From Isurus oxyrinchus (taxonomy: Eukaryota): 64,000 nucleotides of DNA. Below, piece after piece: positions 16,990-62,760 of this stretch (the first letter of the stretch is position 1; each line of letters starts with the position of its first letter). The notes under the pieces are model-generated. The model saw nothing but the letters and a program-made list of their open reading frames with translations. It was not told the origin of the DNA and searched no databases. The stretch lies in contig JANJGN010000026.1 in the NCBI GenBank assembly GCA_026770705.1, positions 37,758,001 through 37,822,000 of the forward strand, given 5' to 3'. Both the position numbers and the translations under genes were made by a program.

Positions 16990-17870
16990 ACCCCCAACAT
17001 CTCATCCCCTTCCCACGGCACCTTCCAATGCAATTGCAGGAGGTGTAACACCTGTCCCTTTACTTCCTCCCACCTCCCTCCAAGATCCCAAACTCTCCTT
17101 CCAGATGAAGCAGAGATTTATTTGCACTTCATGCAATTCAGGCTGCTGCATTCACTGCCCTCAAGGTGGTCTCCTCTACACTGGGGAGAGTAAACACAGA
17201 CTGACTGTCCGCTTTGTGGAACACTTTCACTCAGTCCACAAGCATAACCCAGACCTGCCCGTCACCATCTGGCTCACACTCACATTTCTGTCCTCGGCTT
17301 TCTACAATGTTCCAGTGAAGCTCAATGCAAACTGGAGGAACAGCACCTCATCTTCTCAATAGGCACTCTACAGCCTTCTGGACTCAACATTGAGGTCAAC
17401 AGATTCACACTATGAACTCCATCCTCCATTTTAATTTCCCTGCAGCCTCCCAACCCCCAAGTGCCAGTTTGCATCTTGTTCTCATGTTTTGCTTTCAGAC
17501 AGCACCGACCCTTTTTCTGCTATTAACACATTCTGCTATTTTGCTTCCAGTCAGTGCTGACCTTTGTCTAAATATTAACACCTGCTTTCATAATTAATAA
17601 TATCATTCCCTTTGCCTTTGACTTGTGTTCCATGATATCTTTGTCATTTAATCTCTCCTGACCTCCAACCTATCCCTGAACATTTTTGCTCCATTTTCTA
17701 AACCGCCCCCCCCCACCCCCACCCGCCCCGTCAGCAGCATAAAATCCATCACATTTCTATCTCCCTTCAGTTCTGAAGAAGAGCCATATGGCCTGAAAAC
17801 ATTCAACCTGTTTCTGTCTCCACAGATGCTGCCAGACCTGCTGGGAACTTCAGCACCCCTGTTTTTATTA
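16990..17870 (+). mobile_element. Penelope-like element, 3' part (GIY-YIG endonuclease + pLTR)
   Basis: FQMKQRFICTSCNSGCCIHCPQGGLLYTGESKHRLTVRFVEH is a degenerate PLE GIY-YIG domain; ends in the pLTR motif. Confidence 0.8.
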
Positions 17871-18306
17871 GAGCACAAATTCCTGGCTTTATTATAATAT
17901 AAAATGCATAGCAAGTCGGCCAAAATCTGTGGAACGAGGAGCAGAGTTAAAGTTCCACGTGGGTATTAAATAGAACTGGAAATGACTGAGGTGGAGGTTA
18001 GGAGTTAGAAGATGTAACATAAAAGTGGAAAACTTTTATGTCGGTCAATTACTTACAGTGATGAATGTCTGTCGTGTGTTGCCTTGCAAGTTGCACAGGA
18101 GCCGCAGCGATTAGATTGGTGGGTTTTGAAAATTGAATTTTGCAATTCACCGCTTTTGGCACTATTTCACCACACTGTCAATTTCATGTTCCAGCCAATG
18201 GCAATGGTTGTTTAGTTGCCTGAATAGGCCATTTTGTCTCTGGATAAAGCAGTCTGAAATGAAAATAAAAGGCAAAAGTATCATTTATCAAAACACAAGG
18301 ATAATG

Positions 18307-18378
18307 TCCCTGGTGACCATGTGGTTAGAATTCAGCCCTTTCAACGCTGCGGCCTGGATTACATTTCTGGTTTGGGAA
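18307..18378 (+). pseudogene. tRNA-Glu(TTC) pseudogene
   Basis: tccctggtgaccatgtggttagaattcagccctTTCaacgctgcggcctggattacatttctggtttgggaa; full length but mutated T-loop. Confidence 0.7.
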
Positions 18379-18502
18379 TGAGGGTTCTTTGCTCATGTCA
18401 CACTGCTTAAACAGAGAGTTCTTTTTATTGGTTTAAAACTGAAAATGCATAACAGCCTCTGCCAGAATCAGTGGAGTGAGAGTTGAAGCTTCCCATCAGA
18501 GC

Positions 18503-18950
18503 TGGTATCAGAGGGAATGGAGCAGGAAGGGAGGATCCCTGGGGCAAAGTTCAGCGAGTTCAGGAGGATGGTATCAGAGGGAATGGAGCCGGGAGAGAGG
18601 ATCCCTGGGGTGATGTTCGGTGAGTTCAGGAGGATGGTATCAGAGGGAATGGAGCAGGGAGAGAGGATCCCTGGGGTGATGTTCAGTGAGTTCAGGAGGA
18701 TGGTATCAGAGGGAATGGAGCTGGGAGAGAGGACCCCTGGGGCGATGTTCAGGAGGATGGTATCAGAGAGAATGAAGCCGGGAGAGAGGATCCCTGGGGC
18801 GATGTTCAGTGAGTTCAGGAGGATGGTATCAGAGGGAATGGAGCAGGGAGAGAGGATCCCTGGGGTGATGCTCAGTGAGTCCAGGAGAATGGTGTCAGAT
18901 GGAATGGAACAGGAAGAGAGGATCCCTGGGGCGATGCTTCGTGAGTTCAT
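18503..18950. repeat. 66-bp minisatellite, ~7 copies
   Basis: Unit atggagcagggagagaggatccctggggtgatgttcagtgagttcaggaggatggtatcagaggga; unit starts at 18517 and 18583; one copy lacks 9 bp. Confidence 0.95.
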
Positions 18951-19239
18951 TTGTTTGTTGCGTAGGGCAGGCCGCAGGGCCTGGGAATTTCCACGATTTG
19001 TGCTCCCTGGTGTCCCTGATAAGCCCCAAACTGTAGTAATAATTTTGCAGAATTACTCTTCGATAATGTTTCTGTGTCAGATCGGCCCTAGTCTCTAGGA
19101 ATCATCCAATGGTTTGTATCAACTGTACCGTCTGTAGTATATATGTATTTTTTTGTTATTCGTTTATGCAATGCGGGTGTGGCTGTCTGGGCCAGCATTT
19201 ATTGCCCATCCCTAATAGACTTGAGAAGGCGGCCTGTGA

Positions 19240-19605
19240 CGTTCTGCCTTGTGAGTATTTAATCGGACAAGGTAGAGAGAGTCCAGGCGAATGCTCTCGG
19301 GGCGGGGGTTCAAATCCCAACATGGCAGCTGCTGGAATGTGAGTTCAATTAATAAAATCTGGGATTGAAAACTGGCCTCAGTGATGGTGACCATGACAAC
19401 TATCACCGATTGTCGTAAAAACCCATCTGCTGCACTCAAGTCCTTTCGGGGAGGAAATCTGTCATCTTCATCTGGCCTGGCCGACATGTGATTCCAGGTC
19501 CACAGCAATGCGGTTGACAGTTAACTACCCTCTGAAATGGCCTCGGAAGGCGGACTGTTCAGAGCAGCCTTGCCAGCGACACCCATATCTCATGAAAGGA
19601 TAAAG
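19240..19605 (+). mobile_element. SacSINE1-like SINE
   Basis: gggttcaaatcccaacatggcagctg...gtcgtaaaaacccatctg...ctggcctggccgacatgtga; same family as 3010-3335. Confidence 0.7.
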
Positions 19606-19917
19606 AGGGAAAAACAAAACTTTTTCTCTCTATCTAAACCCTGCTGCACCGACGCTGGGAGTGATTAATGGGACAGTGTAAAGGAAACTTTCATCCTCCC
19701 TATACTGTCCTGTATGGGCCTCTGATGAACAGCCCCTGCTGTTTACAATTACCTGACATGTGACTGTGACAGGCCTGAGTATGAGTGAAATCACCAAGAT
19801 TCTCCTCGCTGTGCAATCATTCTGCCTCTGGAATTTGCCATAAAAAGGCAGAGGTAAAGGTGTATTAACACCGATGGGTCGCTGGGTGGCGCGATGACTC
19901 TTTCACTGAAGGATCTC

Positions 19918-20028
19918 GGGCTCTGAAGAAGTCATGAGGACTCGAAACGTAAACTCAGTTTTTTGTCTCCACAGATGCTGTGAGACCTGCTGAGTTTTTC
20001 CAACATTTTCTGTTTTTGTTTCAGATCC
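19918..20028 (+). mobile_element. Penelope pLTR fragment with hammerhead-like motif
   Basis: ctgaagaagtcatgaggactcgaaacgtaaactc...cagatgctgtgagacctgctgagtttttcc. Confidence 0.65.
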
Positions 20029-20177
20029 CAGACAAGTCTGGTTAAAAATGCCTGCCTGGGAAAGGGGGCGGGGGGGGGGGGGGGGGGGGGGCGGGAAACA
20101 CTGTAATAGGGAAAATGGAGCGATGTCGATGGGTCTGAGAGAAAGTTCAGCAAAGTCAGTTCGTTTCACATTCATGA

Positions 20178-20219
20178 TTTATTAACAATTTCAGGGAACA
20201 TTTTACAGAAAAGTTTATT
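20178..20219 (-). terminator. Candidate poly(A) signals for membrane IgM mRNA
   Basis: AATAAA on minus at 20214-20219 and 20178-20183, ~420 nt after the TM2 stop. Confidence 0.55.
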
Positions 20220-20634
20220 TTAAAGTTAACTGAAGTGAATATAATCACTGAGAGTCACATTGAGAACAGAGCACATTCGCTCTGAGCTGCCAACTTTGTG
20301 TACAACTGTAACAGACACCAGAAAGAGAAAACAGGAGCTCAATATCAAGGGAAGGGATTAATTGTGAATGAGGAATGAGAAAAGTTACTTATTTACACAG
20401 GGAATTCAAACTACTAGGAAATTATTAGCTGCTGTTGCAATGAATCATAATTATCTCGCACATTTGAAACAGAGAAACGGAAATACTGTTCATAATTGTC
20501 TCAGTTACAAATTCGGAAACATAAACTGAAGGTATTTCATCTTTACAGTCACCGAGAGGATATATTTTAAATTCGGAATACAGAGGTCTCAATAAAGAGC
20601 TGAGGAAAATCTACGGTGTCCAAAATTCAATCGG

Positions 20635-20643
20635 TCACTTGAT
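20635..20643 (-). CDS. IGHM: IgM TM2 exon (IK-stop)
   Basis: tttacag|ATC AAG TGA, phase 0 after TM1; gives cytoplasmic tail KIK. Confidence 0.85.
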   Translation of the reverse strand: MK

Positions 20644-20781
20644 CTGTAAAAGAGGATGAAATAATGAAGCAGATGTTTATAATCTGGGACATTTATGTTA
20701 GAGTTCTAATCAATGAAACATTGAGAGATTTTTCAAACCGCTTCTGTCAGTTTGAAGTGTGAGTGGATTGAATCTTCTCAC

Positions 20782-23997: not shown

Positions 23998-24013
23998 TTT
24001 ATTATTTTTTATT
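23998..24013 (-). terminator. Secretory IgM poly(A) signals (two AATAAA)
   Basis: tttatt on + at 23998-24003 and 24008-24013, ~30-40 nt after the tailpiece stop. Confidence 0.8.
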
Positions 24014-24040
24014 GTAGTTTGAAATGGAACCGAGAGATTC

Positions 24041-24432
24041 TCATTGACATGAATTAACGGTGTCCATCAGTGCAAGGGAAATGTTCACAAAACTCGGTTT
24101 ACCGCTGGATTTATCAACCGTTCTGTTGATGATCTTCAAGGGGATCGCTTCATGTCCCACCACACAGGAGTAAGAAGCGCCGCTGGCCCACTCCTCCGCT
24201 GCAATGGATAACAGGCTGTACATGAAGAAGGAGCGATTGCCGTTCTCCGCCACCACCTCGGTGTTCTTGTAGTTTCCGGGAGCCACTGGCTTGTCATTGA
24301 CGGTCCACTTGACGAAGATCTCTCGGGGGGAGAAACCTCTCACTAAGCAGCTGAGGGAGACGGACCTCTGAGCGGAGACATCTTCTGCCGAGGGCAGGAG
24401 GACAGACACGGAAGGTTCCCGCGGGTCTTTAA
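24041..24432 (-). CDS. IGHM: IgM CH4 exon plus secretory tailpiece (internal donor after 24103 for the TM form)
   Basis: [14 protein letters not shown]...[16 protein letters not shown]...[24 protein letters not shown]|[20 protein letters not shown]; G|GTAAA donor, N-glycan site and penultimate Cys in tail. Confidence 0.98.
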
Positions 24433-24559
24433 CTGCAGAAAATGTACAATAAATGTCAATAAGCTGCATACTTTCGTAGACAATGAAATGGCTGGTTAGA
24501 TGTGAGAGAAACGTGTTTTGTGATGAATATTAAGGTTTTTCATTATCCACTTCTAGGAA

Positions 24560-24760
24560 ATATATCACCGATTCTTCACTATAGCTGAATCAAAATCCTG
24601 GAACACCCTCCCTAACAGCACTGTGAGTGTATCTACACCACATGGACTGCAGCGATTCAAGAAGGCAGCTCACCACCACCTTGTCAAGGGCAATTAGGGA
24701 TGGGCAATAACTCTGGCCCAGCCAGCGACGCCCACATCCCATGAATTAATAAATAAAATA
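24560..24760 (+). mobile_element. LINE/SINE shared 3' tail fragment
   Basis: ttcaagaaggcagctcaccaccacc...caattagggatgggcaataa...cccacatcccatgaat. Confidence 0.65.
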
Positions 24761-25136
24761 CTTTGGGATCTGTCCGGCTTTCCAGCTCGGAGCAAAGGTG
24801 GCACAATCCTTTTCCCTGGAGTTGGACGAGAAAGTTTCTCAAAGTTTACAGCACAGAAACAGGCCATTCTGCCCAACTGGTCTATGTTGGTGTTTTAGCT
24901 TCGCACCAGGCTCCTCCCATCTTGCTTCATCTAAACCCAATGGCACAACCTTCAATTCATTGTTCATTCATCTACTTATCAATTTCCCCCTGAAAGTCCA
25001 CAGGCCCAGGGCGTTTAGTTGGCGAAATTGCTAATCAGAGTAGACCATGAATACAATGAATAGTAAATATTGATCCTTACACTTAGACTGGAAATAGACA
25101 CGTTGAACTACTTATTGCTTCAATCTCACCGCTCAC

Positions 25137-25448
25137 CTGATTCCTTGTGGATGGAACTTCTTAAAGGAGTCGGCAGATCCTGATGGCTCACCACGCAGTA
25201 GAACTCAGCCCCACTCAGCCAGGCTTGTGTCGAGATGTTTACGTTGCTGACCACGCTGTTGGGATCCTCTCCAGGTTGGACGGCGATTTCTGATTTCAAA
25301 GGCTTCTTCTCTTGTGTCCAGGACACGAGGACTCCATAAGGAGCATTAGAAACGATGCAGGTTAAGGTCACGGTCGCTTCCAGTAAGACTTGTTCTATTG
25401 GAGGTGGCAATAGAGTAATTGTGGGATCGTTGTGGCATTGGTGATCAC
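25137..25448 (-). CDS. IGHM: IgM CH3 exon
   Basis: cag|GT...TCA G|gtgag, phase 1/1; [16 protein letters not shown]...TLTCIV...VSW...[22 protein letters not shown]. Confidence 0.97.
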
Positions 25449-26064
25449 CTGTGAGACAGAAATGAAAATCAACCAAAGTTTCACCTTCAGGAGCAGGACA
25501 GCAGTATTCAGCTTTCACTCTCTGAAGGAGAATAAATCACCTTGGACATATCAACCTCTAACTATCGTTTTTAATCTTCTTTACACAATGGAAAACCAGC
25601 TTGGTCTGTGTACATTGTTCTCAAAATTTAAGTCGTTCAGCCCCGGTAACATTCTCATGAATCTGCGTTGCCCCAGTCCCAATACAAATGTATCATTCAT
25701 GGGCCCTGGAATGCAGGACTGAAAGCTGTTTTATAAATAGCACTTTCCAACACTCTATCTCGAAGCTGTTACCAGTGAAGGGTTCCAGACACCTTCTGCC
25801 TCTCCAAATATGATCAGCTGACTCAAGGTAAAGCTGATATCAAGTCCACCTCACTCACTCTATGACGTCAATGCAGAGACGTGATGTGATCAAATCCTGA
25901 ATGGTGAATAATCCGAATGCAGCACTTACATTGGAATGAAACACCAACTATATGATAGTAAATTAGAAGTTGTTCTGTGCTTTCTACTAACTCCAATAAA
26001 TTCCTGATTTGATTAACATTGGAGTGCAGAATGCTCTATTGCTTCCACGGTTTGTATTTCTTAC

Positions 26065-26379
26065 CCTCACACTTGGTGGCGTTTCGACTTTGGGTGACCC
26101 CTTGGTGAGTGACCTGACAGGTATACACTGCGTCGCTGAACCATTCCCCAGCGGAGACTTTCAGCCGACTGGTCGCCGAGAAGTTCCCGTTCACTTCAAA
26201 GGCGGGAGGGGTGATAATTCCTGAACTCATGGGTTGTCCATTTTTCAGCCACTTCACGGTGATTGGCTTCGGACGGAAATCGATGATTGAACAGACGGCG
26301 GTTGCAAATTTGTTCGTTGTGATTTCTTCCTTGGAGCTCACGGTGAGGAGAACAGTTGGATGTAAGATGTCAGGAGGAC
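26065..26379 (-). CDS. IGHM: IgM CH2 exon
   Basis: aag|GT...GAG G|gtaag; [12 protein letters not shown]...[21 protein letters not shown]...YTCQVTH...KCE. Confidence 0.97.
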
Positions 26380-26593
26380 CTTCAAAAAACACAGGTTAGC
26401 CATTTCTTGCAGAAGAAATTGATAACAGATACAATGAGTTCTTATATTTTAACAGGTTCTTTGCAGTCAATGGACACTAACCTGGAATTTCCAGGGATCA
26501 GAACTATGCAGAGCACTATTAATGCGTTATAACCAAGGCCCTATACAGGTCAATCACAGCCTTTCTGTTTCTCACAGGTTCCCCAACACTTAC

Positions 26594-26893
26594 ATTGCAT
26601 TTCAACGCTCTTGTCTGAGACGCTGTGTCGAACCTCACACTTGATTTTGCTGCACTCTCCCTCTGACTCAGTGATGGTTAACTGGCTGCTCAGAGTGTAG
26701 GTTCCCTTCTGGTTTCTCACTGACGGATAAGTCTTAAATCCAGTGGTAATCTGCTGCCCATCTTTCTTCCATGTCAAGCTTGTGATTTCTGGGGAGTAGT
26801 CCATCGCCAAACAGCCGTAGGTGACGGAGCCGTCGGTGTTTTGTTGTTGACAGGAGGAGACCAGGCTGTAGAGAGTGGGCGAAGACGGTGTCA
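26594..26893 (-). CDS. IGHM: IgM CH1 exon
   Basis: cag|TG...CAA T|gtaagt; [15 protein letters not shown]...[10 protein letters not shown]...TWKKDG...KTYPSV...CEVRH; early Cys for light-chain linkage. Confidence 0.97.
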
Positions 26894-27434
26894 CTGGGAA
26901 AGAATGGCCGATTGAACAAGTTAGACTCTGTGAATTGTGATCATTAAGTAACCAAACAACTTGAAATTAAACTATAACTATAAACATATCCAAATATATT
27001 CCAACTAAAACCCACATCCACATTTCATCATTTATTATTTCCATCATTTGGTGATCCTCGCCTGTCGGTTCCCTCTTTAGAAACCCACACCTCTTTATCC
27101 GCTTCTATCCCATTACTAAAAGAGAACATTTTGATGTCATCTGAATGACGTACCTTTCAGTGGATTAAAATGGAAGAGCAGAGCATCTTCCCCATTATTT
27201 TGGCACCATTTATTTCTCAATCAACAGCACTTGGTGATAGAGAAATTGTCTCGTCATTTATATCATTGCAGTTTGGAAACTGGCTATGTTCAAATTTACT
27301 CCCCGCTCCATGACCCCCAAAACAAAGAATAGCAACGACTCTCCGAAGGTACCTTTGCAATGGTACCTTACTAGTGACCATAGAGCTCTAAATTGAATAC
27401 CAGTTACAGAAAGTACGACGTTTTCCAATCGTAT

Positions 27435-28985
27435 GTACATGTGAACATGTGGATCAGTAGCAGGAGTAGGCTATTCGGCCTCTCGAGCCTCCTCCACCAT
27501 TCACTCCGATCATAGCTGATCTGATTGTGGCGTTAACTCCCGCCTACTCTCCGCTCATCTTTGACTCACTTGTCAATGAAGAATCTCTCTACTTCTGCCT
27601 TGAAATATTAATGACTCCTCCTCCATCGCTCTCTGGGAAAGACAGTTCCAAACTTTCACTACCCTTAGAGAAAAATATAAAATCTCCTCATTTCCGCCAG
27701 AATGGGAGACCTATTTTTAAACTCTGTTGCCTATCGTTAGTCTCTCCCACAAGCGGAAACATCCTTTCAGCATCCACCCTGTCATTTTCCTCCAGGATCT
27801 TATATGTTTCAATAAAATCAGTTCTTATTTTTCTAAACTCCAATAGATACAGGCCTATCCAAACTTTCCTCATAAGATAACCGACGACACTTCCCAGTAT
27901 CAGTTGAATGAACATTCTCTGAACAGCTTCTAATGCTTTTATATCCTTTCTTAAAGGAGACTAAATCTGTACACAGTAATTCAGACGAGGCCGCATTGAC
28001 GCCTCGTTAAACTGTTACAAACCATCTTTACTTTTATATTATTTTCTATTATTAAGGATCCTATCACGGGTCATTAAGAAAATCCAAATGCAATTACGTA
28101 GATCCATCATGGTTTTGTGACAAGCAGAGTTCCACAGGGATCAATGCTGTGGCCTCAACTATTTACAATTTACATCAATGACTTTAATGAAAGGACTGAA
28201 TGAATTTGCTAAATTTGCTGATGACACAAAGATAGATAGGAGAGTAAGTGGTGAAGAGGGCATAAAGGTCAGCAAAGGGATACAGATAGGTTATAGGAGT
28301 GGGCAAAAAAATGACAGAGTATAAATTCCCCTTGTAATAAATGACAACATTCCCTTTGCCTTCCTCATTACTTGCTGTTCCTGCATTATAACTTTTTGTG
28401 ATTCATGCAGCAAGGGATCCGCATCCCTCTGTACCTCAGAGTTCAGCAATCTCTCTCCCTTTCAATAATATGCAGCTTTTGTATTCTTCCTGCCAAAGTG
28501 GGCACGTTTATATTTTCCCACGTTATACTCTGTCATTTTTTTGCCCACTCCTATAACCTATCTATGTCCCTTTGCTGACCTTTATCCCCTCTTCACCACT
28601 TACTCTCTTATCTGTGTGTCATCAGCAAACTTAGCAAATTCATTCAGTCCTTTCATTTAAGTCATTGATGTAAATTGTAAATAGTTGAGGCCGCAGCATT
28701 GATCCCTGTGGCACTCCACTTGTCACAAAACCATGATGGATCTACGTAATTGCATTTGGATTTCCTTAGTGACCCGTGATAGGATCCTTAATAATAGATT
28801 CCATCATTTTCGCTCGGACAGATGTTAAGCTAACTGGCCTGTCGGTTCTTGCTTTCCCGTTACCTCTTTTATTTGATATAAAAGCCTCATTCTCTATTTT
28901 CCAATCTGATGAGACTTTTCCAGAATCCAGGGGAGTTTGGAAAATTAAACCAATGCCTCTGCTATTTTAGTAACCACCTCGTTAA
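27435..28985 (-). mobile_element. CR1/HER1-like LINE containing an internal inverted duplication
   Basis: GLYLLEFRKIRTDFIETYKIL motif; RT remnants ...FADD; see finding on the inverted arms. Confidence 0.8.
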
Positions 28986-39517: not shown

Positions 39518-39887
39518 GCACCCACTCTCTGTTCAGTGCTGCCTCGCAATATTTACTTCAAATAGACGTTTACTTCTGATCTAGTTTAGTATTTATGCAG
39601 CAATTTACAAAACTCAATGAATAGTGATCCCGTCCAAGTATCAGACATATTAAAATGAACATTATATCTATGTCTGTAATTGTGGAAACTATTAACAGTA
39701 AATGTAAGCACAGCCAAAAGCTCAGCCCATTATATCAATTGGTTTGTTAGGTTTTATAGTTAAATTTGCTGCTTTACTTTGGTCAGAAGCGACTTGTTGT
39801 CGGGTTCTGATCATTACAGTTAATATTACATTTAAAACAAGTACTGACCGTCAGGTTACGATGGCAGTTGTTGAGTTTCTCTCGATC

Positions 39888-39926
39888 TGTTCTTGTTCGG
39901 GTCCAGCCCTGGTTCCTCTCGCTGTG
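39888..39926 (-). promoter_or_regulatory. VH RSS, 23-bp spacer
   Basis: Minus strand CACAGCG, 23 nt, ACAAGAACA directly after YYCARD. Confidence 0.9.
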
Positions 39927-40231
39927 GTCTCTTGCACAGTAATAGATGGCGGTGTCTTCAGTCTTCAGGCTCGTCATGTCCAAGGAGAAGATGTTCCTTG
40001 AAGTGTCTTTGGACGCAGTGAATCGATTCTTAATTGCTGGGGCATAGTTGTTGCTGGATGAACTATAGTAGTAAAGCAGCCACTCCAGCCCCTGTCCGGG
40101 AACCTGTCGGACCCAGTACATGTAAGCACTGCCAAGATTGAAGCCGCTGGTTTTACAGGTCAGTCTCAGGGAGCCTCCGGGACGCCCGGTCTCTGCCTCT
40201 GGCTGAGTCAAAACAACCTCCGACTGAACAC
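39927..40231 (-). CDS. IGHV: VH exon (germline, unjoined)
   Basis: cag|GT...: [31 protein letters not shown]...[13 protein letters not shown]...RFTASKD...DTAIYYCAR; canonical Cys/Trp/Cys, no stops. Confidence 0.98.
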
Positions 40232-40360
40232 CTGTAAAAATAAATCAAAAACCCCGAGGATTAATCCTGGTGAAATGATTTCTGACTCTGTAACATTCCA
40301 GAGAGAGACTAACACTGAGACAGTAACAGTGAGAGACTTGGACAATAAAAAACTACTCAC

Positions 40361-46600: not shown

Positions 46601-46704
46601 GTTATACAGGATCCTGGTTCGATTATTAATTCCCTGAGAACTACATTATTTCTATTGTGCTGGATCAGGCCTCTGTTTGTATTAAAATAGACCCTATCTC
46701 ATTA

Positions 46705-47095
46705 ATAACAAAACAAAAACAGAATAACCTGGAAAAACTCAGCAGGTCTGGCAGCATCGGCGGAGAAGAAAAGAGTTGCCGTTTCGAGTCCTCATGACCC
46801 TTCTCATTAATGTTCCACTGGAAGCCATCCCAGTTTGTATTGCACTGGATTCTTTCTCTGTTTATATTACACTAGGCCCTGTCTCTGTTAATGTTATATT
46901 AAATCTTGACTATGTCTACATTATAGTGGTCATTGTAACTATGACACTAGGCTATGTTTCTGAAGAAGAGGCATATGGACTCGAAACATTAACTCTTTTT
47001 CTCTCTCCACAGATGCAGTCCAACCTGTTGAGTTTGTCCAGCATTTTCTGCCTTTATTTCAGATTTCCAGCATTTGCAGCATTTTGCTTTTATCT
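46705..47095. mobile_element. Two Penelope pLTR fragments in opposite orientation flanking 27-bp-satellite relics
   Basis: 46705-46803 (-) and 46958-47092 (+), both with the gtc...gactcgaaac hairpin. Confidence 0.65.
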
Positions 47096-49800: not shown

Positions 49801-51200
49801 ATGGTGTCAATATTGCTGCATTCCACCGTGTTTCTGTTAATATTACACTCAGCCTATCTCATTGTTACTGCTCTAGTCCGTGATTCTGTTTCTGTAATAC
49901 TAGATCCTGTCTCAGTATTGCTGCTCTCCATCAAGCCTCTGTTGATACTACACTGGGCCTGTCTCATTGTTGCTGCTCTAGTTCATGTTTCTGTTTCTGT
50001 AACACTGGACTCTGTCTCAGTTATTGCTGCTCTCCACCATGTCTCTGGTAATATTTTACTGGGCCTGTCTCTTTGTTACTGTTCTAGTCCATGTTTCTGT
50101 TTCTGTAACATTAGGTCCTGTCTTAGATATTTATGTAATTGTCCTCTGTTTATATTACATTAGTGTATTCCCTTACTTTATTGCACTAGAGCCTGAAAAT
50201 AGGAGTTAAATGGTTTAATTTAAACAGCTGCAATATAAGAGAGGTCTGTGGATCATGAACACAAATCTGGGATGCAGGGAGGACAAGTCATAACATCTAA
50301 ACAGGCCCCCATGTTAATTGCTCCCACCATCTTGCTGCCTTATCTTCACTATTTCCACCCCAGCCAATTTCCACATTATGGCACGTGTGTAGTGCAGTAA
50401 TAACAGAGGCAGGGTCTAATGTAATTTAAATACAGATATGATCTAGCACAGAACTGAGACAGTGGCTACTGAAATACAGAGACAGTTCTAGATGAATATA
50501 TACAGAGACAGGTCAATTATAATATAAACAGAGACAAGGCCTTGTTTAATATAAGCAAAGACAGGATCTAGAGTAATATAAACAGAAATGGGGTCCAGTT
50601 TAATATAAATAGAGACAGAGTCTAGTGTATTATAAACATACAGAGCCCAGTTTAATATAAACAGCGGCATGACCTAGTGCAATATAAACAGAGACCGGAT
50701 CTAACGTAATATAAACAGATACAGCATCTAGTGCAAAATAAACAAAGGCATGTCGAGTATAATATTAACAGAGACATGCCGAGTGTAATATAAACACTGA
50801 CATATCAAGTGTACTACAAACAGGGGCAGAGACTAGTATAATATAAACAGAGACACGGTTTAATGTAATATAAACCAAAATAGGGATCAGTGCAACATAA
50901 ATAGAAACAGGGTCTAGTGTAATATAAACCAGGGCAGGGCCTAGTGCAATATAAACAGAGACAGCGTCTCATGCAATATAAACAGAGGCATGTCGAATAT
51001 AAGGAGACATGTTGAGTGTCATATAAACACGGGCAGGGCCAAGTGCAATGTAAACAGAGACACCATCTAGTGCAATATAAACAGATACATTTCAGATGCA
51101 ATATAAACAGGGACAGGGCCTAGTGCAATACAAACAGAGGCAGGGTCAACTGTAATATAAACAGAGACAGGGTCACGGTCGAATGCAATATCAAGACAGG
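49800..51200. repeat. 27-bp monomer satellite (+ sense 49800-50190; inverted 50390-51200)
   Basis: Unit ctagtgcaatataaacagagacagggt; its reverse complement matches the 53.4-63.4-kb satellite subunits. Confidence 0.85.
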
Positions 51201-52195: not shown

Positions 52196-55100
52196 TTATA
52201 ATCCATTTCATTTGATCAATTTAGTTTGAAGTGTATGAATCGGGCTGATAAAATATATTGGCTAGACATTGACTTCATGTTGTGGAGTAAAGACAGTGAC
52301 CCATGGTGGAGAGACAAGACAAAGTACCAGAGAGGAGAGACAGAGAGAGAGTGAGGATACAGGACATCCCTACAAACACATTTGCCATGACATTATATTT
52401 CATGATCAGTGGGAATCTTACTTAATTCTGAACATAGATATCATCGTGACATAATTCTCATATAACTGATTTTAAAAATGCCCAAAAACAATTGCTACTG
52501 AAATCGGTTGATGTATTTGCATGTTTGACTCTATTTCTGTGCTCTATTGATGGGGAAATATTTGCTGTGCTTTTGTGTATCCAGAATCTAATCTGGGACT
52601 TCTATTTCTGTGTTTATTTACATAAATGCCTCATTGGTTTCAATGAAGTGTTCATGGCAGCAAAACCAGATAAACACAGACACTTATTGATTGGTTTCAA
52701 CTCAAAACAAAGGTTTATTTTAAGAATATTGACAGTTGGTATAAAATTAATAGAAACATTTTCAACATCCATTAGAACAGATGTTATTTATTTCAAATAA
52801 TTAAAAATACATTTAAATTAATAATTCAATTCTGAAAGTTCTACTGTCACAATCAATGATGAATATTTGAACAGGCTGGGATTACACTCAATGTCAATTT
52901 GTTGGAAGATTTAACTGATTAAAAATTGATAATTTAAAACAGCAGCCACAGGAGCGACCTATAATCATATTAATCTCAGCGTTTTCAACATATCACAACT
53001 AGCATTTTAAAATGTTAACATTTAGGAAGAATTTACATTTATAGAATGCAGCTTGTGACCCCAGGACGTCCTAAAGCCCTTGAAATTTGTTGATGTACAT
53101 TTGTTGAAGTTTTGTCACTGCTGTAATATTGGAAATCCATCCGGTGATTTGTGCACAGCAAGCTCCCACGAATAGAGCTGCGAAAAATGATGAGATAATA
53201 TGTGATTTTAGTTGAAGAATGAATACTGGACTAGGATAGTGGGGAGAACAGTCCTGCTCTATAGATTGGTACTAAGGGAGATGTTGCACCTGTCATCGGC
53301 CTGAACGTTTGACCTGTTTCTCTATCTATTGATGCCCACTGACCTGCTGAGTGGTTATTTTTTGCCCTGTCTTAGATTTCCCAAACATGCAGTATTTTGC
53401 AGTGTTTTAATTCGTTCTTGGGATATGGCGTCAATGATGAAGTAATTCTTGCACTTGGCCCTGTCTCAGTTTATTCTAGTCCAGACCATATATCAGGAAT
53501 CACTGCACTAGACACTGTCTCAGTTTATATTAATTTAGACCCTGTATCATTAATCGCTGCAGTGGACCCTGTCTCAGTTTACATTAATCTATACCCTGTG
53601 TCAGTCATTTCTGCACTGGACATTGAGTTTATATTAATCTACACCCTGCATCAGTTTATATTGATCAAGCCCCTTTTTCAGTAATCACTGCACTTGTCAC
53701 TGTTCTGGTTATAATAAACTGCACACTGAATCTATAATCACTGCACTTGGCCCTCTCTACAGTTTCTATTAACCTAGACCCTGTATCAGTAATCACTGCA
53801 GTAGGCCCTGCCTCAGTTCATATTTATCTTGGCCCTGTATCAGTAATCACTGCACTGGACATTGTCTGAGTTTATATTGATTGAGACCCTGTATCAGAAA
53901 TAACTGCACAAGAACCTGTCTCAGTTTATATTAAGCTAGATCCTGTGCTTGTAATCACTACACTAGAGCACGCCTCAGTTTACATTAATCTGGATCCTGT
54001 ATCAGTAATCACCGCCCTACGCTCTGTCTCAGTTTATATTAATCCAGACCCTGTATCAATAATGACTGCACTGGACACTGTTTCAGTTTATATTGATCCA
54101 GACCCTGTATCAGTAATCCTGGCATTGGAGCCTGTCTCATCTTAAATAAATCAAACCCTGTATAATAATCAGTGCAATGACCACCCTCACTTTATATTGT
54201 TCTAGACCCCGTATCAGTAATCACTGCACTAGCCGCTGTCCTCGATTTTATTTATCTTGGCCCTGCGACACTAGTCACTGCACTATGGCCTGCCTTAGTT
54301 TATATCAATCCAGGTCCTGTATCAGTAATAACTTCGCTGGACCCTGTCTCCATTTACATGAGTCCAGACCCTATACCAGTAATCACTGCACTGGCCCCTA
54401 TCCCAGTTTATATTTATGTCAACCGTGTATCAGTAATCACTGCATTCGTCCCTGTCTCTGTTTATATTGATCTGGACGCTGTGCCAGTAATCACTGCACT
54501 GGACCCAGCATCTGTTTATATCAATCCATATCCTGTATCAGTAATCACTGCACTAGACCTTATCTCAGTTTAAATGAGTCCAGAACCTGTATCAGTAATA
54601 ACAGATCTAGAGAATGCTTCCACTTATTTTAGTCCAAACACTGTAACAGTAATCACTGCACTAGCCCCTGTCCCAGTTTATAGTTATCTAGACCATAGAT
54701 CAGTAATCACTGCACAATGCCCAGTGTCAGCTTCTGTCAAGCTACAGCCTGTATCAGGAATCACTGCACTAGACCCCATCTCAGTTTATATTAATCAAGA
54801 CCCTGTATCAGTAATCACTCTACTGGACACTGCCTCAGTTTATGTTGATCGAGACCATGTATCAGTAATCACTGCACTAGACCCTGTCTCAGTGTATATT
54901 AGCCCTAGAGCCTTGTTCATTTATTACTGCAATATGGCCTGCTTCAGTTCAGTAATTACTTCAATGGACACTGTCTCAGTTTATATTGACCCTGATCCTG
55001 TATCATTAATCAATGCACTAGCCTCAGTCCTGCATTATATTTACCTTGGCCCTGCATCAGTAATCACTGCACTAGGCTCTGTCTCAGTTTACATTAATCT

Positions 55101-58100
55101 AGACCCTGTATCAGTAATCACTGAACTATGTCCTACCTCTGTTTTTATCGTCTAGACCCTATATCAGTAATCATCACACTAGGCTCTGTCTCAGTTTATA
55201 TTAATTTAGACCCTGTTTCGATAATCACTGCACTGGACACTGTTTCAGTTTATATTGAACCAGACCTTACTTCAGTTTTCATTGAACTGGACCCTGTCTC
55301 AGATTCTATTGATCTAGACCCTGTATTAGTAATGAATGCACTGGACATTGTCTGAGTTTATATTGATCAGGACCATGTATCAGTAAACACTGCACTAGAA
55401 CCTGTCTCAGTTTCTATTAATCTGGTCATCTATGTCGTTTATATAAATGACAAATAATAGGGGACCCAGCACAGATCCCTGTGCTACGCCACTGGACACT
55501 GGCTTCCAGTAACTAAAGCATCCTTCTGTCATCATCCTCTGTCTCCTACAACAAAGCCAATTTTTAAATTATATTCTGCCCTGTCTCAGTTTTTATTAAT
55601 CTAGACCCTGTATCAGTAAACACCCTACTAGGCCTTGTCTCAGTTTACATTAATTTAGAGCCTGCATCAGTAATCACTGCACTGTGCCCTCCGCAGTTTA
55701 TATTAATCAAGACCCTGTGTCAGTAATCACTGCTCTGGATACTGCCTCAATTTATATTGAGCGAGGCCATGTATCAGTCATCTCTACACTAGACCTGTCT
55801 CAGATTATATTAATCTAGACCCTGTATCTGTAATCTCTGTTCTTGAGGCTCTCTCAGTCAATATTAATCTAGCCTCTGTAACATTAATCGCTGCAGTAGG
55901 CCCTGTCTCAGTTTTTATTAATCAAGACCCTGTATCAGTATTCACTGCAGTAGAAACTGTCTCAGTTGATATTGATCTAGACCCTGTCTCAGTTCATATG
56001 GATCTTGGTCCCACATCTGTTATATCTGCACTAGACTCTGTCTCACTTTACATTAGCCCAGTCCTTCTATCAGTAATCACTGCACTAGATCCAGTCTCAG
56101 TTTATAGTAATTTAGTCCCTGCAGCAGTAATCACTGCAAGAGCTCCTGTCCCAGTTATATTTATCTAGGCCCTGCATCAATGAATACTTCACACTTTATG
56201 TTGGTTCAGACCCTGTATCAGTAATCACTGCACAAGAGCCTGTCTCAGTTTATATTAATCAAGACCCTGTTTCAGTAATCACTGCATTCAACCCTGTTCT
56301 AGCAATAATAATTTGCACCCTGAGCCTAAAAGCACTGCACTGGGCTGTTTCTCAGGTTCAATTAATTTGGACCCTGTATCAGTAATCACTGCATTAGACT
56401 CTGTTCCATTTTATATGCATCCAACCCTGTAACACAAATCATGGCACTCGGCCTTGTCTCAGTTTATATCAATCTAGGCTCTGTATCAGTAATCACTGCA
56501 CTAGATCCTATGTCATTTTATATCAATTTGGACCCTATATCAGCAATCACTGCACTTGAGCCTCTCTGTGTTTATATTAATCTCGGCCCAGTATCGGTAA
56601 TCCCTGCACCATGCCCTGCCTCAGCTTTTTTTTTGAATCTAGACCGTTTCAGTGATCACTGCACTAGGCCCCATCTCAATATCTATATTAACCTAGACCC
56701 TGTATCAGTAATCACTGCCCGAGTCCCTGTGCCAGTTATATTTATCTAGGCCCTGTATCAATGAACACTGCACCAGGCCCTGTCTCAGTTTATGTTAGTT
56801 CAGACCATGGATCAGTAATCACTGCACTCGTCCCTGTTCTGTTTATTATAAACTGCACCCTGAATCTATAATCACTGCACTTGGCCCTCTCTCAGTTTCT
56901 ATTAACCTAGACCCTGTATCAGTAATCACTGCAGTAGTCCCTGCCTCAATTTATATTTAACTCGGCCCGGTATCAGTAATCACTGCTTTGGACATTGTCT
57001 GAGTTTATATTGATTGAGACCCTGTATCAATAATTACTGCACAAGAATCTGTCTCAGTTTATATTAAGATAGATCCTGCATCTGTAATCACTGCACTAGA
57101 GCATGCCTCAGATTTTATAGATCTAGATCCTGTATCAGTAATCAGTGCACTCGGCATTGTCTGAATTTATATTGATTGAGACCCTGTATCAGTAAATGCT
57201 AGACTAGACCCTGTCTCAGTTTATATTAATTTAGTTCCTGTATCAGTAATGACTGCACTAGGCCCTGTCTCAGTTTATATTAATCCAGGCCCTGTATCAA
57301 TAATCGCGGCACTTGGACCTATCTCAGTTTATATTGATCTGGACACTGTATCAGTTATCACTGCACTAGACATTGCCTCAGTTTATATTAATCTAGGCTC
57401 TGTGTCAGTAATCACTGCACTGGACATTGTCTGAGTTAATATTGATTGAGACCATGTGTCAGTAATCACTGCACTGGGCCCTGTCTCAGTTTATATTGAT
57501 CCTGATTCTGTATCGGTAAGCACTGCACCAGACCATGTCTCAATTTAGATTAATCTCGACCCTGTATCAGTAATCCCTGCACTATGCCCTGCCTCAGTTT
57601 TTATTATTCTCGACCCTGCATCTGTAATCATTGCACTAGGCCTGGTCTCAGGTTATATTAATCTACACCCTGTGTCGATCATCAATGCATTAGACCCTGC
57701 ATCATTTTCTATTGATCTAGATTTTGCATCAGTTCTTTCTGCACTAGAGCCTGTCTCAGTTTATATTTATCTGGACCCAGTATCAGTAATCACTGACTAT
57801 GGTCTACCTCAGTTTATATCAGCCTAGACCCTGTATCTGTAATCACTGCACTTCGCAGTGTCTCAGTTTTCACTAATCAAGACCCTGCATCAGCAATCAC
57901 TGCAATGAACACTGTCTCCATATATATTGCTCTAGGCTATCACTGCAATATGCCCTCCCTCAGTTTATATCAAATAGACCCCGTGTCAGTAATCACTGCA
58001 TGAGACCCTGTCACATTTTATATTAACATAGAGCCTGCATTTGTCATCACTACACAATGCCCTGCCTCAGTTTATATCAATCAAGACCCTTTATCCGTAA

Positions 58101-60384
58101 TCACTGCACTAGGCCCTTTCTCCATTGATATTGATCTAGATCTTGTATCAGTAATCACTGCAAAGGACACTGTCTCAGTTTATATTGATCATGATCCTGT
58201 ATCATTAATCACTGCACTAGCCCTTGTCCTGGCTTATATTTATCTAGGCCCTGTCTCAGTTTATATTAATCTGTACCTTGTATCAGCAATCACTGCACTA
58301 TGCCTTGCCTCAGTTTTTTAAAATCAGTCTAGACCCTGTGTCAATAATCACTGCACTAGGCCCTATCAAAGTTTATATTAATTTAGCCCTTGCAGCGGTA
58401 ATCACTGCCCGAGCCCCTGTCCCTGTTATATTTATCTGGACCCTGTGTCAGTGAACAGTGCACCAGGCATTGTCTCAGGTTATGTTAGTTCAGACCGTGT
58501 ATCAGTGATTACTGCACAAGAGCCTGATTCAGTTTATATTAATCAAGGCCCTGTTTCAGTAATCACTGCACTCGTCCCTGTTCTGGTTATAATAATCACT
58601 GCACTTTTCCCTCTCTCAGTTTCTATTAACCTGGACCCTGCATCAGTAATCAATTCAATATGCCCTTTCTTAGTTTATATCAATCTAGTCCCTAAGTCAG
58701 TAATCGCTGCACTAGGCTGTGCTTCAGTTCATATTAATCTAGACCTTGTATCAGTAATCACTGCACTAGACATGATCTTAGTTTTATATTTATCAAGACC
58801 TTGGATCAGTAATCACTGCACTAGACACTGCCTCATGTTATATTAATCCAGACCCTGCATCATTAATCACTGCACTGGACCTTATCTCAGTTTATACTGA
58901 TGTACACCCTGTAACCATAATCACTTCAATGGACACTGTCTCAGTTTATATTGATCCTCATCCTCTATCATTAATCACAGTACTATCCCCTGACCTAGTT
59001 TATATTGCTCTCCTCCCTGTGTCAGTAATCACTGCACTAGGCCCTGCCTCACTTTATATCAACCTAGACCCTCTATTAGTAATCACTGCACTAATCCCTG
59101 TCTCAGTTTATATTGATCTAGACCCTGAATCAGTAATCACTGCACTATGGCCTGCCTCACTTCATATTAATCTGGTCCCTAAATCAGTAATCATTGCATT
59201 AGGCCCTGCCTCAGTTCATATTAATTTAGGCCATGTATCAGTAATCACTGCAATGGGCACTGCCTCAGTTTATACTGACCCTGATCCTGTATCATTAATC
59301 ACTGCACTAGCCTCTCTCCTGCTTTATATTCACCTTGTCCCTGTTTCAGTAATCTCTGCACAATGCCCTGCCTCAGTCTTTATCATCTGGACCCTGTATC
59401 AGTCATCATTGCACTAGGCTCTGTCTCAGTTTATATTAATCTAGACCCTGTATCAGTAATCACTGCACTAGGCTCTGTCTCAGTTTATATTAATCTAGAC
59501 CCTGTATCAGTAATCTCTGCACAATGCCCTGCCTCACTCTTTATCATCTGGACCCTGTATCAGTCATCATTGCACTAGGCTCTGTCTCAGTTTATATTGA
59601 TTCAGACACTGTATCAGTAATCATTGCACTATGGCCTGCCTCAGCTTATATCAATCCAGATTCTGTATAAGTTAACGCTTCGCTCGACCCTGTCTCAATT
59701 TATATTAGTCTACAACCTGTATCAATAATGACAGAGCTAGAAAATGCCTCAGTTTATGAGTCCAGACCATGTATCAGTAATCACTGCACTGGCCCCCATC
59801 CCAGTATATTTTTATATAGACCCTGGATCAGTAATCACTGCGCTAGCCCCTGTTTCTGTTTATATTGATCTAGACCCTGTGTCAGTAATCACTGCACTAG
59901 ACCCAGCATCAGTTTATATCAATCTAAACCCTCTAGCAGTAATCACTGCACTTGGCCTGTCTCAAGTTCTATTAATCTAGACCCTGTATCAGTAATCACT
60001 GCACTCGACCCTATCTCAGTTTATATTGATTTAGGCCATGCATCATAATCAGTGCAATGGACACTGTCGCATTTTATATTAATCGAGGCCCTGTATCAGT
60101 AATCACTGTACTATGCCAGGACTCCATTTATATCAATCCCTATCCTGTATCAGTAATCACTGCACTAGACCTTAACTCAGTTTATATTAGTCCAGAACCT
60201 GTATCAGTATTGACAGAACTAGGGAATGCCTCAGTTTATTTTAGTCCAGACACTGTAACAGTGATCATTGCACTAGCCCCTGTCCCAGTTTATATTTATC
60301 TAGACCCTGTATCAATGATCACTGCACAATGTCCTATCTCAGTTTATATCAAGTCAGAGCCTGTATCAGTAATCGCAGCACCAT

Positions 60385-60721
60385 AATAAAAGCAAAAAAC
60401 TGCGGATGCTGGAAATCCAAAACAAAAACAAAAATACCTGGAAAAACTCAGCAGAACAGGCAGCATCTGGGGAGAGGAACACAGTTAACGTTTCAAGTCC
60501 GCATGACTCTTCAACAGAACTAAGGAAAAATAGAAAAGGGGTGAAATATATCTTATTAGCTTATATCCCACCATACCCCCTTGAATCAGTTTATATTTCA
60601 CCCATTTTCTATTTTTCCTTTGTTCTGTTGAAGAGTCATGCAGACTTGAAACATTAACTGTGTTCCTCTCCACAGATGCTGCCAGACCTGCTGAGTTTTT
60701 CCAGATATTTTTGTTTTTGTT
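60385..60721. mobile_element. Penelope inverted pLTR pair inserted in the satellite
   Basis: Arms ~60419-60550 and ~60592-60721 are reverse complements. Confidence 0.8.
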
Positions 60722-61449
60722 ATCGTAGCACTATACTCCGTCTCAGTTTATATTAATCAAGACCCTGTTTCAGTAATCACTCTACTGGACACTGCCTCCT
60801 TTTATATTGATCTAGACCATGGATCAGTAATCATAGCACTTGGTCCTGTCTCAGTTTATATTAGTCTAGATCCTTTATGAGTAATCATTGCACTAGCCCT
60901 TGCATCAGTTTATATCAACCTAGACCCGGTAATAGTAATCACTGCACTTGGCTGCATCTCAAGTTTTATTAATCTAGACCCTGTATCACTAATCACTGCA
61001 CTGGACACTCTCTCAGTTTATATTGATCTACCCACTGTATCAGTAATCATTTCTCTAGTCCCTGTCCTAGTTTATTTTTATCTCAGCCCTCTATGAATAA
61101 TCACCGCACTATGGCTTGCCTCAATGTATATCAACCTAGACCCTGTATCAGGGCATTGTCTGAATTTATATTGATCAAGATCCTGTATCAATAAACACTG
61201 GATCAGACCTTTTCCCAGTTTATATTAATCTAAATCCTGTGTCTGTAATCACTGCACTCGAGCATGTCTCAGTTCATATTAATCTAGATCCTGTATCAGT
61301 TATCACTGCACGTGAGCCTGTCTCAGTTTACATTAATCTAGACAATGTATCAGTAAGCATTGCACTAGGCCCTGTCTCAGTTCATGATAATCTAGACCCT
61401 TCATTAGTAAGCACTGCACTAGGCACTGTCTCAGTTTATATCAATCTGG

Positions 61450-62760
61450 ATAAAAGCAAAATAGTGCGGATGCTGGAAATCTGAAAGAATAGCATAAAAT
61501 GCTGGGACATCACAGCAGGTCTGACAGCACCTGTGGTGAGAGAAGCAGAGCTAACTTTCTGAGACCGTATGACCTTCCTCAGAGCTAAAGAGAAGTCAAA
61601 ATGTGATGACATTTGCTGTTTAAGCGGGGTGGAGCAAGTCAGGCTGGATAGAAGACAAGCAATAGGGAGGAGTCAGGTGACACTGCCAAGCATATCGTAG
61701 GCAAACAGAAAAAGGGAGTGTTAATGGCAGTAGTAAGGCTAAAGTAGGTGTTAAAGAGTCATAAAGGTAAGAAAGCAGAATGTGTTAACAGCAGAGCCAG
61801 AATCAGCACACTGTGAAAGAACAACATGGGACAAGTAACTGATGGCCCTTTTGGGGGTGTGGTAGGGGTGGTTGGGGAAAAACAGTATAAAAATGAACAA
61901 AAAAGGGGATAAAAGAGGATAAAACAATGAATAAATGAATAAGGCTGTAAAGTGCATTATCGGAAGATGAGTTTCTGTTCCTCCAGTTTGCGCTGGGCTT
62001 CACTGGGGCAATGCAGCAGGTCAAAGAGGGACATGTGGGTATCAGAGAAGGATGGTGTGTTGAAATTGCAAGCGACAGGAAGGTCTAGGTCATGCTTGCA
62101 GATAGACCGAAGGTGTTCCTCAAAGCGGCCTGCCAGTCTGTGTTTGGTGTTCCCAATCTAGAGGAGACTGCATTGGGAGCATTGAATGCAGTCAACCAAA
62201 TTGAAGGAGGTGCAATGAAGCGGTGCTTCACCTGAAAGGAGTGTTTGGGCCCTTGGACGGTGAGGAGGGAGGAGGTAAATGGGCAGGTGTTGCATCTTCT
62301 CTGATTACTTGGGAATGTGCCATGGGAAGGTATGAGGTGTTGCGGATGATGGAGGAGTGGACCAGGGTGTCTCGGAGGGAATGGTCCCTGTGGAATGCTG
62401 ACAGGGGTGGGGGTGGAGTGGTGAGGGAAGGTATGTTTGGTGGTGGCATCATGTTGGAGTTGGCAGAAAAGTCGGAGGATGATCCTTCGAATGCTGGAGT
62501 GGTGGGATGAAATGTGAGGAAAAGGGGGACCTTATCATGATTCTGGGAGAGAGGGGAATGCGTGAAAGCAGAGACACAGAAGAGTGGTCAGACACGGTTG
62601 AGGGCCCTGTCAACCGCAGTGGGAGGGAAACCTTGGTTAAGGAAAAAGGAAGGCATGTCAGAAGCATCATTTTGGATAGTGGCATCATCGGAACAGATGC
62701 GAAGGAGGTGAACAAATTAAGAGAATGGAATGGCATTTTTCCAGCATTTTCTGTTTTATA
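61450..62760 (-). mobile_element. Penelope-like element (GIY-YIG region + pLTR; short inverted pLTR piece at 62738-62758)
   Basis: Minus strand ...CIQCSQCSLL*IGNTKHRLAGRFEEHLRSICKHD; FHRDHSLRDTLVHSS; homologous to 16990-17870. Confidence 0.8.

What the first reader, a model, noticed from the sequence alone, without database searches (positions are those of the whole stretch)
17766..61585. Minimal type-I hammerhead ribozyme motifs in the Penelope terminal repeats
Seen: the recurring pLTR consensus is (C)AGTT-CTGAAGA-A-GAGTC-atNNg-GACTC-GAAACGT-(T/C)-AACT(G). This gives stem I (AGTT/AACT), the CUGANGA core, stem II (GAGTC/GACTC), GAAA, a palindromic ACGT mini-stem III and a UH cleavage site. 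Copies: 17768-17810(+), 19918-19956(+), 46957-46995(+), 60483-60521(-) and 60622-60660(+) (both with a CUGUUGA core variant), 61550-61585(-). Partial copies at 3905-3935, 16480-16510 and 46775-46803. Several short fragments end at or inside the motif. Established: Penelope-like elements in other animals carry minimal, dimer-dependent hammerheads. Inference: this shark PLE family encodes self-cleaving RNA; most individual copies here carry mutations.
Basis: partly seen in the sequence, partly recalled or inferred. Interest (0 to 1): 0.7.

Follow-up and report, generated by a model that had tools for sequence, protein, structure and literature searches.

The report
Shark transposon ribozyme with altered core
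These motifs are mostly broken copies of a small self-cutting RNA already known from Penelope-type jumping genes; the notable point is that the youngest family, with about 97,000 copies, changed a normally fixed catalytic letter, so it likely spreads with little or no cutting.

Summary
All nine motifs lie at the stated places and are minimal type-I hammerheads in the pseudo-LTRs of an endonuclease-bearing Penelope-like element (PLE). Two sit about 360 nt behind GIY-YIG remnants, and intact relatives have a 926-codon RT+GIY-YIG frame between two motif-bearing repeats. That arrangement is published (PMC4209133). Only one window copy passes a structural descriptor. Published mutagenesis predicts low activity for position-6 changes. 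Copies mostly start at the motif's 5' edge and keep the uncut site; starts at the cut site are about 0.5% and confounded by microhomology. Best reading: cleavage is weak and dispensable for insertion while the fold is largely kept; the evidence for that constraint is mixed. Nothing was assayed. I found no A6U hammerhead in the papers searched, but this scan already noted it elsewhere in this genome and noted the motif in other shark genomes.

The parts
3836..3935 (-). Solo pLTR stub of the older U6 type, 5'-truncated inside the core (starts near U6), with a 10-bp target-site duplication
4020..4165 (-).
16478..16570 (+). Solo pLTR stub starting inside the core (near A9), with a 15-bp target-site duplication (16454-16468 / 16571-16585)
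16958..17406 (+). Broken linker and GIY-YIG endonuclease remnant of an old PLE copy
   Evidence: tblastn with P0001, E 1e-30; relatives
17768..17810 (+). Hammerhead motif with canonical CUGAAGA core and broken stem II and GAAA, about 365 nt after the EN remnant; pLTR homology ends near 17843
19918..19956 (+). Hammerhead motif with A6 core and a 2-nt deletion at the start of stem II; stub extends to about 20026
46709..46803 (-). Stub of the youngest subfamily (98% identical to the intact element L082), starting at G8, so position 6 is absent; 10-bp target-site duplication
46957..46995 (+). Hammerhead motif with A6 core, mismatches in stems I and II and lost palindrome; stub extends to about 47109
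60386..60550 (-). Left arm (with tail) of a head-to-head pLTR pair; contains the U6 motif 60483-60521, the only window copy passing the descriptor
   Evidence: (I8)
60592..60721 (+). Right arm (no tail); contains the U6 motif 60622-60660 with a stem I mismatch and lost palindrome. The pair is bounded by a 14-bp duplication with 2 mismatches (60372-60385 / 60722-60735)
61449..61612 (-). Old pLTR with a decayed motif at 61550-61585 (CUGAGGA core, stem I AGCU/AGCU), about 360 nt after the EN remnant
61942..62740 (-). Frameshifted remnant of the C-terminal part of the PLE ORF (residues 651-914 of P0001: linker and GIY-YIG)
   Evidence: tblastn E 2e-60; blastn 79% over 797 nt

Best explanation
The motifs are minimal type-I hammerheads in the terminal repeats of one long-lived Penelope-like retrotransposon lineage, whose later subfamilies carry U in place of core A6 and likely cut themselves weakly or not at all, cleavage probably being dispensable for insertion. 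Shown: motif anatomy, linkage to RT+GIY-YIG elements, subfamily counts, and where copies start and end. Inferred mechanism: the RNA would begin at the 5' edge of stem I (about -42 to -33 from the cut site). The element's protein would prime cDNA at two internal sites (about +65 and about +100) and copy back through the uncut hammerhead. This yields 95-140-bp stubs with target-site duplications and head-to-head pairs, as in this window. In the A6 ancestors any cleavage would need a dimer through the ACGU palindrome and probably protein help. After A6U the fold is likely kept mainly as part of the 5' RNA structure that the protein recognises, with at most residual cleavage.
For: Intact elements: 926-codon open frame with RVT_1 and GIY-YIG, CUGUCGA motif in both pLTRs, tandem units 99.4% identical. 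Counts: U6 97,438, A6 6,917, C/G 2,770 of 107,125; a stem-free canonical pattern still finds only 16,310 A6 motifs (control 235). Copies chosen by downstream sequence alone: U6 in 24 of 24 readable young copies, A6 in 15 of 16 of an older subfamily. Tree of 56 EN segments: 37 rows (34 U6, 1 C6, 2 A6) form one nested group (support 82/77); the youngest group (100/99) has end branches of mostly 0-0.03. Of 28 young copies, 12 start at -42 to -33, 3 inside stem II, none at the cut; 12 end at +62 to +74 and 12 at or beyond +96. Only 695 of about 84,000 young copies pass a filter for loss of GAAA. Literature: all CUGA-region mutants except the C3-G8 swap had low activity (PMC9901934, passages); natural A6C is slow in Mg2+ (PMC3088659, PMC7151607); in Anolis Poseidon, RT starts at two internal sites that define the tail, and hammerhead mutants do not block insertion in vitro (PMC11167929).
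Against: No cleavage assay and no raw RNA reads; all runs were contigs. After U6 fixation the motif changed at 1 of 30 constrained positions (wobble-preserving) against 4 of 7 free positions (p=0.0025) and 21 of 42 near-flank positions, which is what a still-working ribozyme would also show; the catalytic G8 and G12 are kept. That constraint is not significant against EN third codon positions (14 of 110, p=0.19), and the +22 to +70 region is equally conserved (2 of 49). Support for a single origin of U6 is modest and the root is by midpoint. The transcription start is inferred from DNA ends only. I found no A6U-specific rate in the texts read.
Confidence: 0.6

Rival explanations
1. The U6 hammerhead is still a working but gated ribozyme. 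Dimerisation plus binding of the element's protein (or Mn2+) rescues it, and it trims tandem transcripts to unit length at a step that leaves few traces in inserted DNA.
For: All ten other core positions, both stems and the ACGU palindrome were kept after U6 fixation, while N7, loop II and H17 changed within allowed letters. The Anolis PLE hammerhead cleaves only with protein (PMC11167929). Natural A6C is active in Mn2+ (PMC7151607). Among young copies lacking GAAA, 16 of 100 listed start exactly at +1 (counted by eye; 6 of 30 by script).
Against: The +1 class is matched by a -3 class (15 of 100, by eye), and 5 of the 6 scripted +1 cases are inverted junctions, several with microhomology. It amounts to roughly 0.5% of copies. 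The A6 subfamily shows no clearer peak (4 of 26). In contexts longer than the bare motif the hammerhead fold is usually not the predicted minimum-energy structure.
Confidence: 0.25
2. The hammerhead likeness is now a relic. The stretch is conserved only because the subfamilies are close, or because it overlaps a promoter, initiator or splice acceptor.
For: Constraint is not significant against synonymous EN sites (p=0.19), and the downstream region is just as conserved. Older subfamilies have a pyrimidine tract and YAG overlapping stem I. One A6 subfamily carries a C-A mismatch in stem I in 9 of 22 copies.
Against: Changes fall on the positions a hammerhead leaves free (4 of 7 versus 1 of 30). 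An older sister subfamily has stem II AGGUC/GACCU (384 exact matches versus 2 with mixed arms). No GT-AG joint ending at stem I among the 15 of 29 joints shown.
Confidence: 0.1
3. The short copies are a separate non-autonomous SINE or retrozyme family that propagates through hammerhead-cut circles.
For: Many solo 95-140-bp units with their own target-site duplications; retrozymes derive from pLTRs (bioRxiv 10.64898/2026.07.22.740005).
Against: The stubs equal the ends of coding elements of each subfamily (98% to L082). Their 5' ends vary, they are not tandem arrays, and they contain the cut site internally rather than at their ends.
Confidence: 0.05

Closest known systems
Minimal hammerheads (min-HHR) in pLTRs of metazoan PLEs (Cervera & De la Pena 2014, PMC4209133; main text parts 1-2 of 4 and supplement parts 1-2 of 3 read)
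   Same: Type-I topology, 4-bp stem I, extra nucleotide between 9 and 10.1, G10.1-C11.1, palindromic 15.2-16.2 with no loop III, one motif per pLTR about 3.3 kb apart, mostly solo truncated copies.
   Different: All 56 motifs in their Fig. S3 have A6 (their descriptor required it) and none is from a cartilaginous fish. Here U6 is fixed in the dominant subfamilies, and the copy number (about 10^5) exceeds their highest (about 9,000).
EN+ PLEs of Neptune/Nematis type (Craig et al. 2021, PMC8557442; passages)
   Same: Single ORF with RT, a CX4CXXC linker, and C-terminal GIY-YIG with CCHH; partial tandems, inverted 5'-truncated copies, optional tail.
   Different: Neptune versus Nematis was not resolved by phylogeny here. 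That paper notes Naiads thrive without canonical hammerheads; here a hammerhead-bearing lineage thrives with an altered core.
Anolis Poseidon PAc (Frangieh et al. 2024, PMC11167929; parts 1-2 of 4)
   Same: Two 3' end classes about 35 nt apart; uncut RNA as the apparent template.
   Different: There the hammerhead overlaps the start codon, whereas here the first ATG lies about 139 nt after the cut site. Protein-assisted cleavage was shown there and is untested here.
Natural A6C hammerhead of phage Bcep176 (PMC3088659 section 8; PMC7151607 parts 1-2 of 4)
   Same: Natural substitution at core position 6.
   Different: A single phage motif with C6, assayed (slow in Mg2+, good in Mn2+). Here it is U6 in a minimal dimer-type motif, in about 97,000 genomic copies, unassayed.

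Membership tests
PLE minimal type-I hammerhead | Located in the pLTR of an RT+GIY-YIG element | tested here: met
PLE minimal type-I hammerhead | Stems I and II pair; extra nucleotide after A9; G10.1-C11.1; palindromic 15.2-16.2; U16.1-H17 | tested here: met
   Family majorities pair at 84-100% per position in F1, F2 and F4. Exceptions: C-A mismatch in stem I in 9 of 22 F3 copies; A-U at 10.1-11.1 in the old sister subfamily.
PLE minimal type-I hammerhead | Core CUGANGA with A6 | tested here: not met
   Met in the older subfamilies (28 of 31; 21 of 22) but not in the two younger ones (U in 33 of 37 and 67 of 70, some loci were selected on this letter). Genome counts. The U6 form is therefore filed as a variant, not a canonical member.
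PLE minimal type-I hammerhead | Covariation in stems across families | tested here: inconclusive
   Two compensatory pairs in stem II on one branch, one A-U to G-U change, and U-A to C-G in stem I in 2 copies against 9 uncompensated C-A. Few independent events.
PLE minimal type-I hammerhead | Self-cleavage after H17 as a dimer | not testable with these tools
   No assay. The genomic footprint at +1 is weak and confounded; only contigs were available for RNA.
EN+ PLE, Neptune/Nematis type | Single ORF: RT, CX2-5CXXC linker, GIY-YIG with CCHH | tested here: met
   P0001. RVT_1 E 7e-08 and GIY-YIG E 9e-04 for the L081 copy; GIY-YIG is below Pfam's curated cut-off. Linker and CCHH read directly from the sequence.
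EN+ PLE, Neptune/Nematis type | pLTRs, partial tandems, inverted truncated copies, tail, target-site duplication | tested here: met
Neptune clade specifically | Placement in an RT phylogeny with reference PLEs | not tested
   No reference PLE proteins were fetched; PDB search gave no hit.
Non-LTR retrozyme | Tandem units each with a complete canonical type-I hammerhead | tested here: not met
   Window copies are dispersed or inverted stubs; the tandems seen are full coding elements.

The most novel reading that the evidence does not exclude
The first natural A6U hammerhead: a retrotransposon lineage retuned its ribozyme into a switch that works only inside its own ribonucleoprotein (or with a specific metal), then expanded to about 100,000 copies. 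The genome holds matched A6 ancestors and U6 descendants that make the role of PLE hammerheads directly testable.
Probability: 0.25. Interest if true: 0.7.

Novelty: new variant of a known kind. Interest (0 to 1): 0.45.

Why it matters
What hammerheads do for Penelope-like elements is an open question: processing step, regulator or passenger (PMC8557442, PMC11167929). This genome offers a natural comparison within one lineage, before and after a change at an otherwise invariant core position, with intact young elements available. If U6 is dead, cleavage is dispensable even in a highly successful hammerhead-bearing PLE. If it is active, it widens the known catalytic core. Either way, searches that require CUGANGA would miss most intact motifs in this genome (16,310 versus at least 97,438).

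Tried and rejected
Rfam scan: no hammerhead model hit at E<=5. PDB sequence search with P0001: no hit. Cut-site footprint, a lead from earlier scan notes: looked for in the young U6 family (695 filtered matches, 100 listed, 30 scripted) and an A6 family (42 matches, 26 distinct scripted); no clean peak in either, so it cannot separate active from inactive cores. Intron ending at stem I, as in D. virilis: the candidate donor at the stop codon exists only in the youngest subfamily; no short ORF-to-motif junction in any locus held; no such joint among the 15 of 29 joints shown; not supported, not excluded. Read laying to see position 6 in other organisms: uninformative, because only contigs were available and even the known N7 polymorphism was not listed; one 86-nt contig piece of coded organism D matches the young U6 sequence without differences, unverified. 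The per-family divergence values are inflated by flanking DNA and were not used. The 'F5' and 'other' bins contain mis-parses and were not used for counts. Eleven of 67 EN segments were dropped before the tree as short or duplicate, and 28 loci from duplicated IgH clusters were left out of the family analyses. Literature searches without a relevant hit for A6U. Figure 5 of PMC3088659, the activity tables behind PMC9901934 and the bioRxiv supplements were not seen and could bear on the novelty claim.

Full report
Setting. The window is G000:C26:37758001-37822000 of a 4.98-Gb assembly. It holds a C2H2 zinc-finger gene and immunoglobulin V and C1-set exons. The PLE remnant at 16958-17843 recurs in many near-identical places on the same contig. 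That fits the clustered IgH organisation of cartilaginous fishes (recalled knowledge); 'shark' is an inference, and I did not identify the species.

Observation. All nine motifs are present as described. A relaxed motif hits 7 window sites and none in 20 shuffles. A structure-only descriptor with positions 6 and 7 free finds 6 motifs in 400 kb of evenly chosen genome (4 U6, 2 A6), none in 8 shuffles, and one in the window, at 60483-60521(-). The other window copies have broken stems, a lost ACGU palindrome, a 2-nt deletion or a 5' truncation. Rfam has no hit for them.

They belong to a Penelope-like element. The motifs at 17768(+) and 61550(-) lie about 360 nt downstream of GIY-YIG remnants on the same strand; in 66 other copies this spacing is mostly 360-450 nt. 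Same-strand motif pairs 3.3 kb apart led to intact elements. L082 and L081 have a 926-codon open frame with RVT_1 and GIY-YIG matches, a CX4CXXC linker and the CCHH residues. The tandem units in L081 are 99.4% identical, so the family was active recently. By the definition in PMC8557442 (passages) this is an EN+ PLE of Neptune/Nematis type; I did not resolve the clade. In the window, 60386-60721 is a head-to-head pLTR pair with a tail on one arm and a 14-bp duplication, and three solo stubs of 93-100 bp have 10-15-bp duplications. These layouts are described for PLEs (PMC3846280, passages).

The motif is the published minimal hammerhead. Reading the motif as AGUU, CUGNNGA, A, stem II, GAAA, CG, U, H, AACU reproduces the features listed by Cervera and De la Pena: extra nucleotide after A9, G10.1-C11.1, palindromic 15.2-16.2. 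They found no monomer activity and only low dimer activity for a Schistosoma example. Their Fig. S3 lists 56 motifs, all with A6 and none from a cartilaginous fish, though their descriptor required A6. A 2026 preprint reports tandem hammerhead repeats in one chondrichthyan genome (supplements not seen).

The position-6 change is the informative part. With stems fixed, the genome has 107,125 exact matches: 97,438 with U6, 6,917 with A6 and 2,770 with C or G. A stem-free canonical pattern gives 16,310 (control 235). Copies selected only by downstream sequence confirm the split: U6 in 24 of 24 readable young copies and A6 in 15 of 16 in an older subfamily. The subfamilies form a series: CUGAAGA, CUGAUGA, CUGUUGA, then CUGUCGA with a G-U pair in stem II and C17. 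A tree of 56 EN segments (11 dropped) is ladder-like. All 34 U6 rows fall, with one C6 and two A6 rows, in one group of modest support (82/77), and the youngest group (100/99) has the shortest end branches. The root is by midpoint, so a single origin is likely but not proven. An older sister subfamily has stem II AGGUC/GACCU with A6 (384 matches; 2 with mixed arms). That is compensatory change, but on one branch. Against tidy covariation, 9 of 22 copies of the CUGAAGA subfamily have a C-A mismatch in stem I and 2 have C-G.

Is the U6 motif still constrained? Between the older and the youngest U6 subfamily majorities, 1 of 30 core and stem positions changed (keeping the pair), against 4 of 7 free positions (p=0.0025) and 21 of 42 near-flank positions. 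But EN third codon positions differ at only 14 of 110 (p=0.19 against 1 of 30), and the +22 to +70 region is equally conserved (2 of 49). The test is post hoc and small: suggestive of a kept fold, not proof. Folding predicts stem II with probability 0.96-1.0 in the bare 39-mer. In longer contexts alternative pairings usually win, and the ACGU duplex is worth only -1.7 kcal/mol, consistent with a need for help from protein.

Is it cut? [quoted passage not shown] Natural A6C is slow in Mg2+ but works in Mn2+. In the genome, of 28 distinct young copies chosen by a downstream anchor, 12 continue upstream (3 of them recognised by eye as a sister subfamily), 12 start at -42 to -33, 3 start inside stem II, 1 is an indel case, and none starts at the cut site. 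Their 3' ends are at +62 to +74 (12) or at +96 and beyond (12; the reference stops at +99). A filter for loss of GAAA passes 695 young copies against 83,853 with the anchor. Of the 100 listed, 16 start at +1 and 15 at -3 (by eye). With an estimated filter pass rate of 0.28, +1 starts are about 0.5% of copies, and 5 of the 6 scripted cases are inverted junctions, several with microhomology. The A6 subfamily shows no clearer peak (4 of 26). So inserted DNA comes from uncut RNA in both. This matches the Anolis element, where RT starts at two internal sites, hammerhead mutants still insert in vitro, the ribozyme cleaves only with protein, and no RNA-seq reads end at the cut. RNA runs available here were contigs and could show neither ends nor strand.

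Verdict. The finding is real and of a known kind. I commit to weak or absent cleavage that is dispensable for insertion, with the fold kept as part of the 5' RNA structure (0.6), over a gated but working ribozyme (0.25). Six searches found no natural A6U hammerhead in the library, which lacks most subscription papers. Earlier AI notes of this scan saw the same core and the fixed 5' start elsewhere in this genome and the motif in other shark genomes. I had the U6 counts before reading them; they are not independent support.

Noticed in passing
window 24041-26966(-), 39783-40244(-): Immunoglobulin heavy-chain constant exons (C1-set) and a V exon; the neighbouring PLE remnant is duplicated with the cluster at many places on C26 and small contigs.
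   Followed up: partly
window 581-1474(-): C2H2 zinc-finger exon with about 10 fingers next to the IgH cluster.
   Followed up: no
window about 53400-63000: Long array of diverged 54-bp (27-bp-based) repeats between the V exon region and the window end, into which PLE pieces have inserted; related units near 46650-46940 and 50400-51200.
   Followed up: no
window 28045-28798: Inverted repeat with arms of 190 and 91 nt at 95-96% complementarity, not matched by the PLE pLTR.
   Followed up: no
L082:2070-2085 and other youngest-subfamily copies: The youngest subfamily gained, just 5' of stem I, a near copy of the 3' arm of stem II plus GAA; in L081 it is predicted to pair locally. It would be present in read-through RNA but mostly absent from RNA starting at stem I.
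   Followed up: partly
window 60600-60625(+); L020:1500-1534: In the older subfamilies the AG of stem I ends a pyrimidine tract, like a splice acceptor, echoing the D. virilis intron that ends at helix I; no donor or spliced junction was found.
   Followed up: partly
window 19918-19956(+); rows: The same 2-nt deletion at the start of stem II recurs in 8 of 100 listed A6 motifs; recurrent slippage or a small subfamily.
   Followed up: no
window 12431-12497(-): Weak tRNA-like match below Rfam's threshold (E 0.77), possibly a tRNA-derived SINE head.
   Followed up: no
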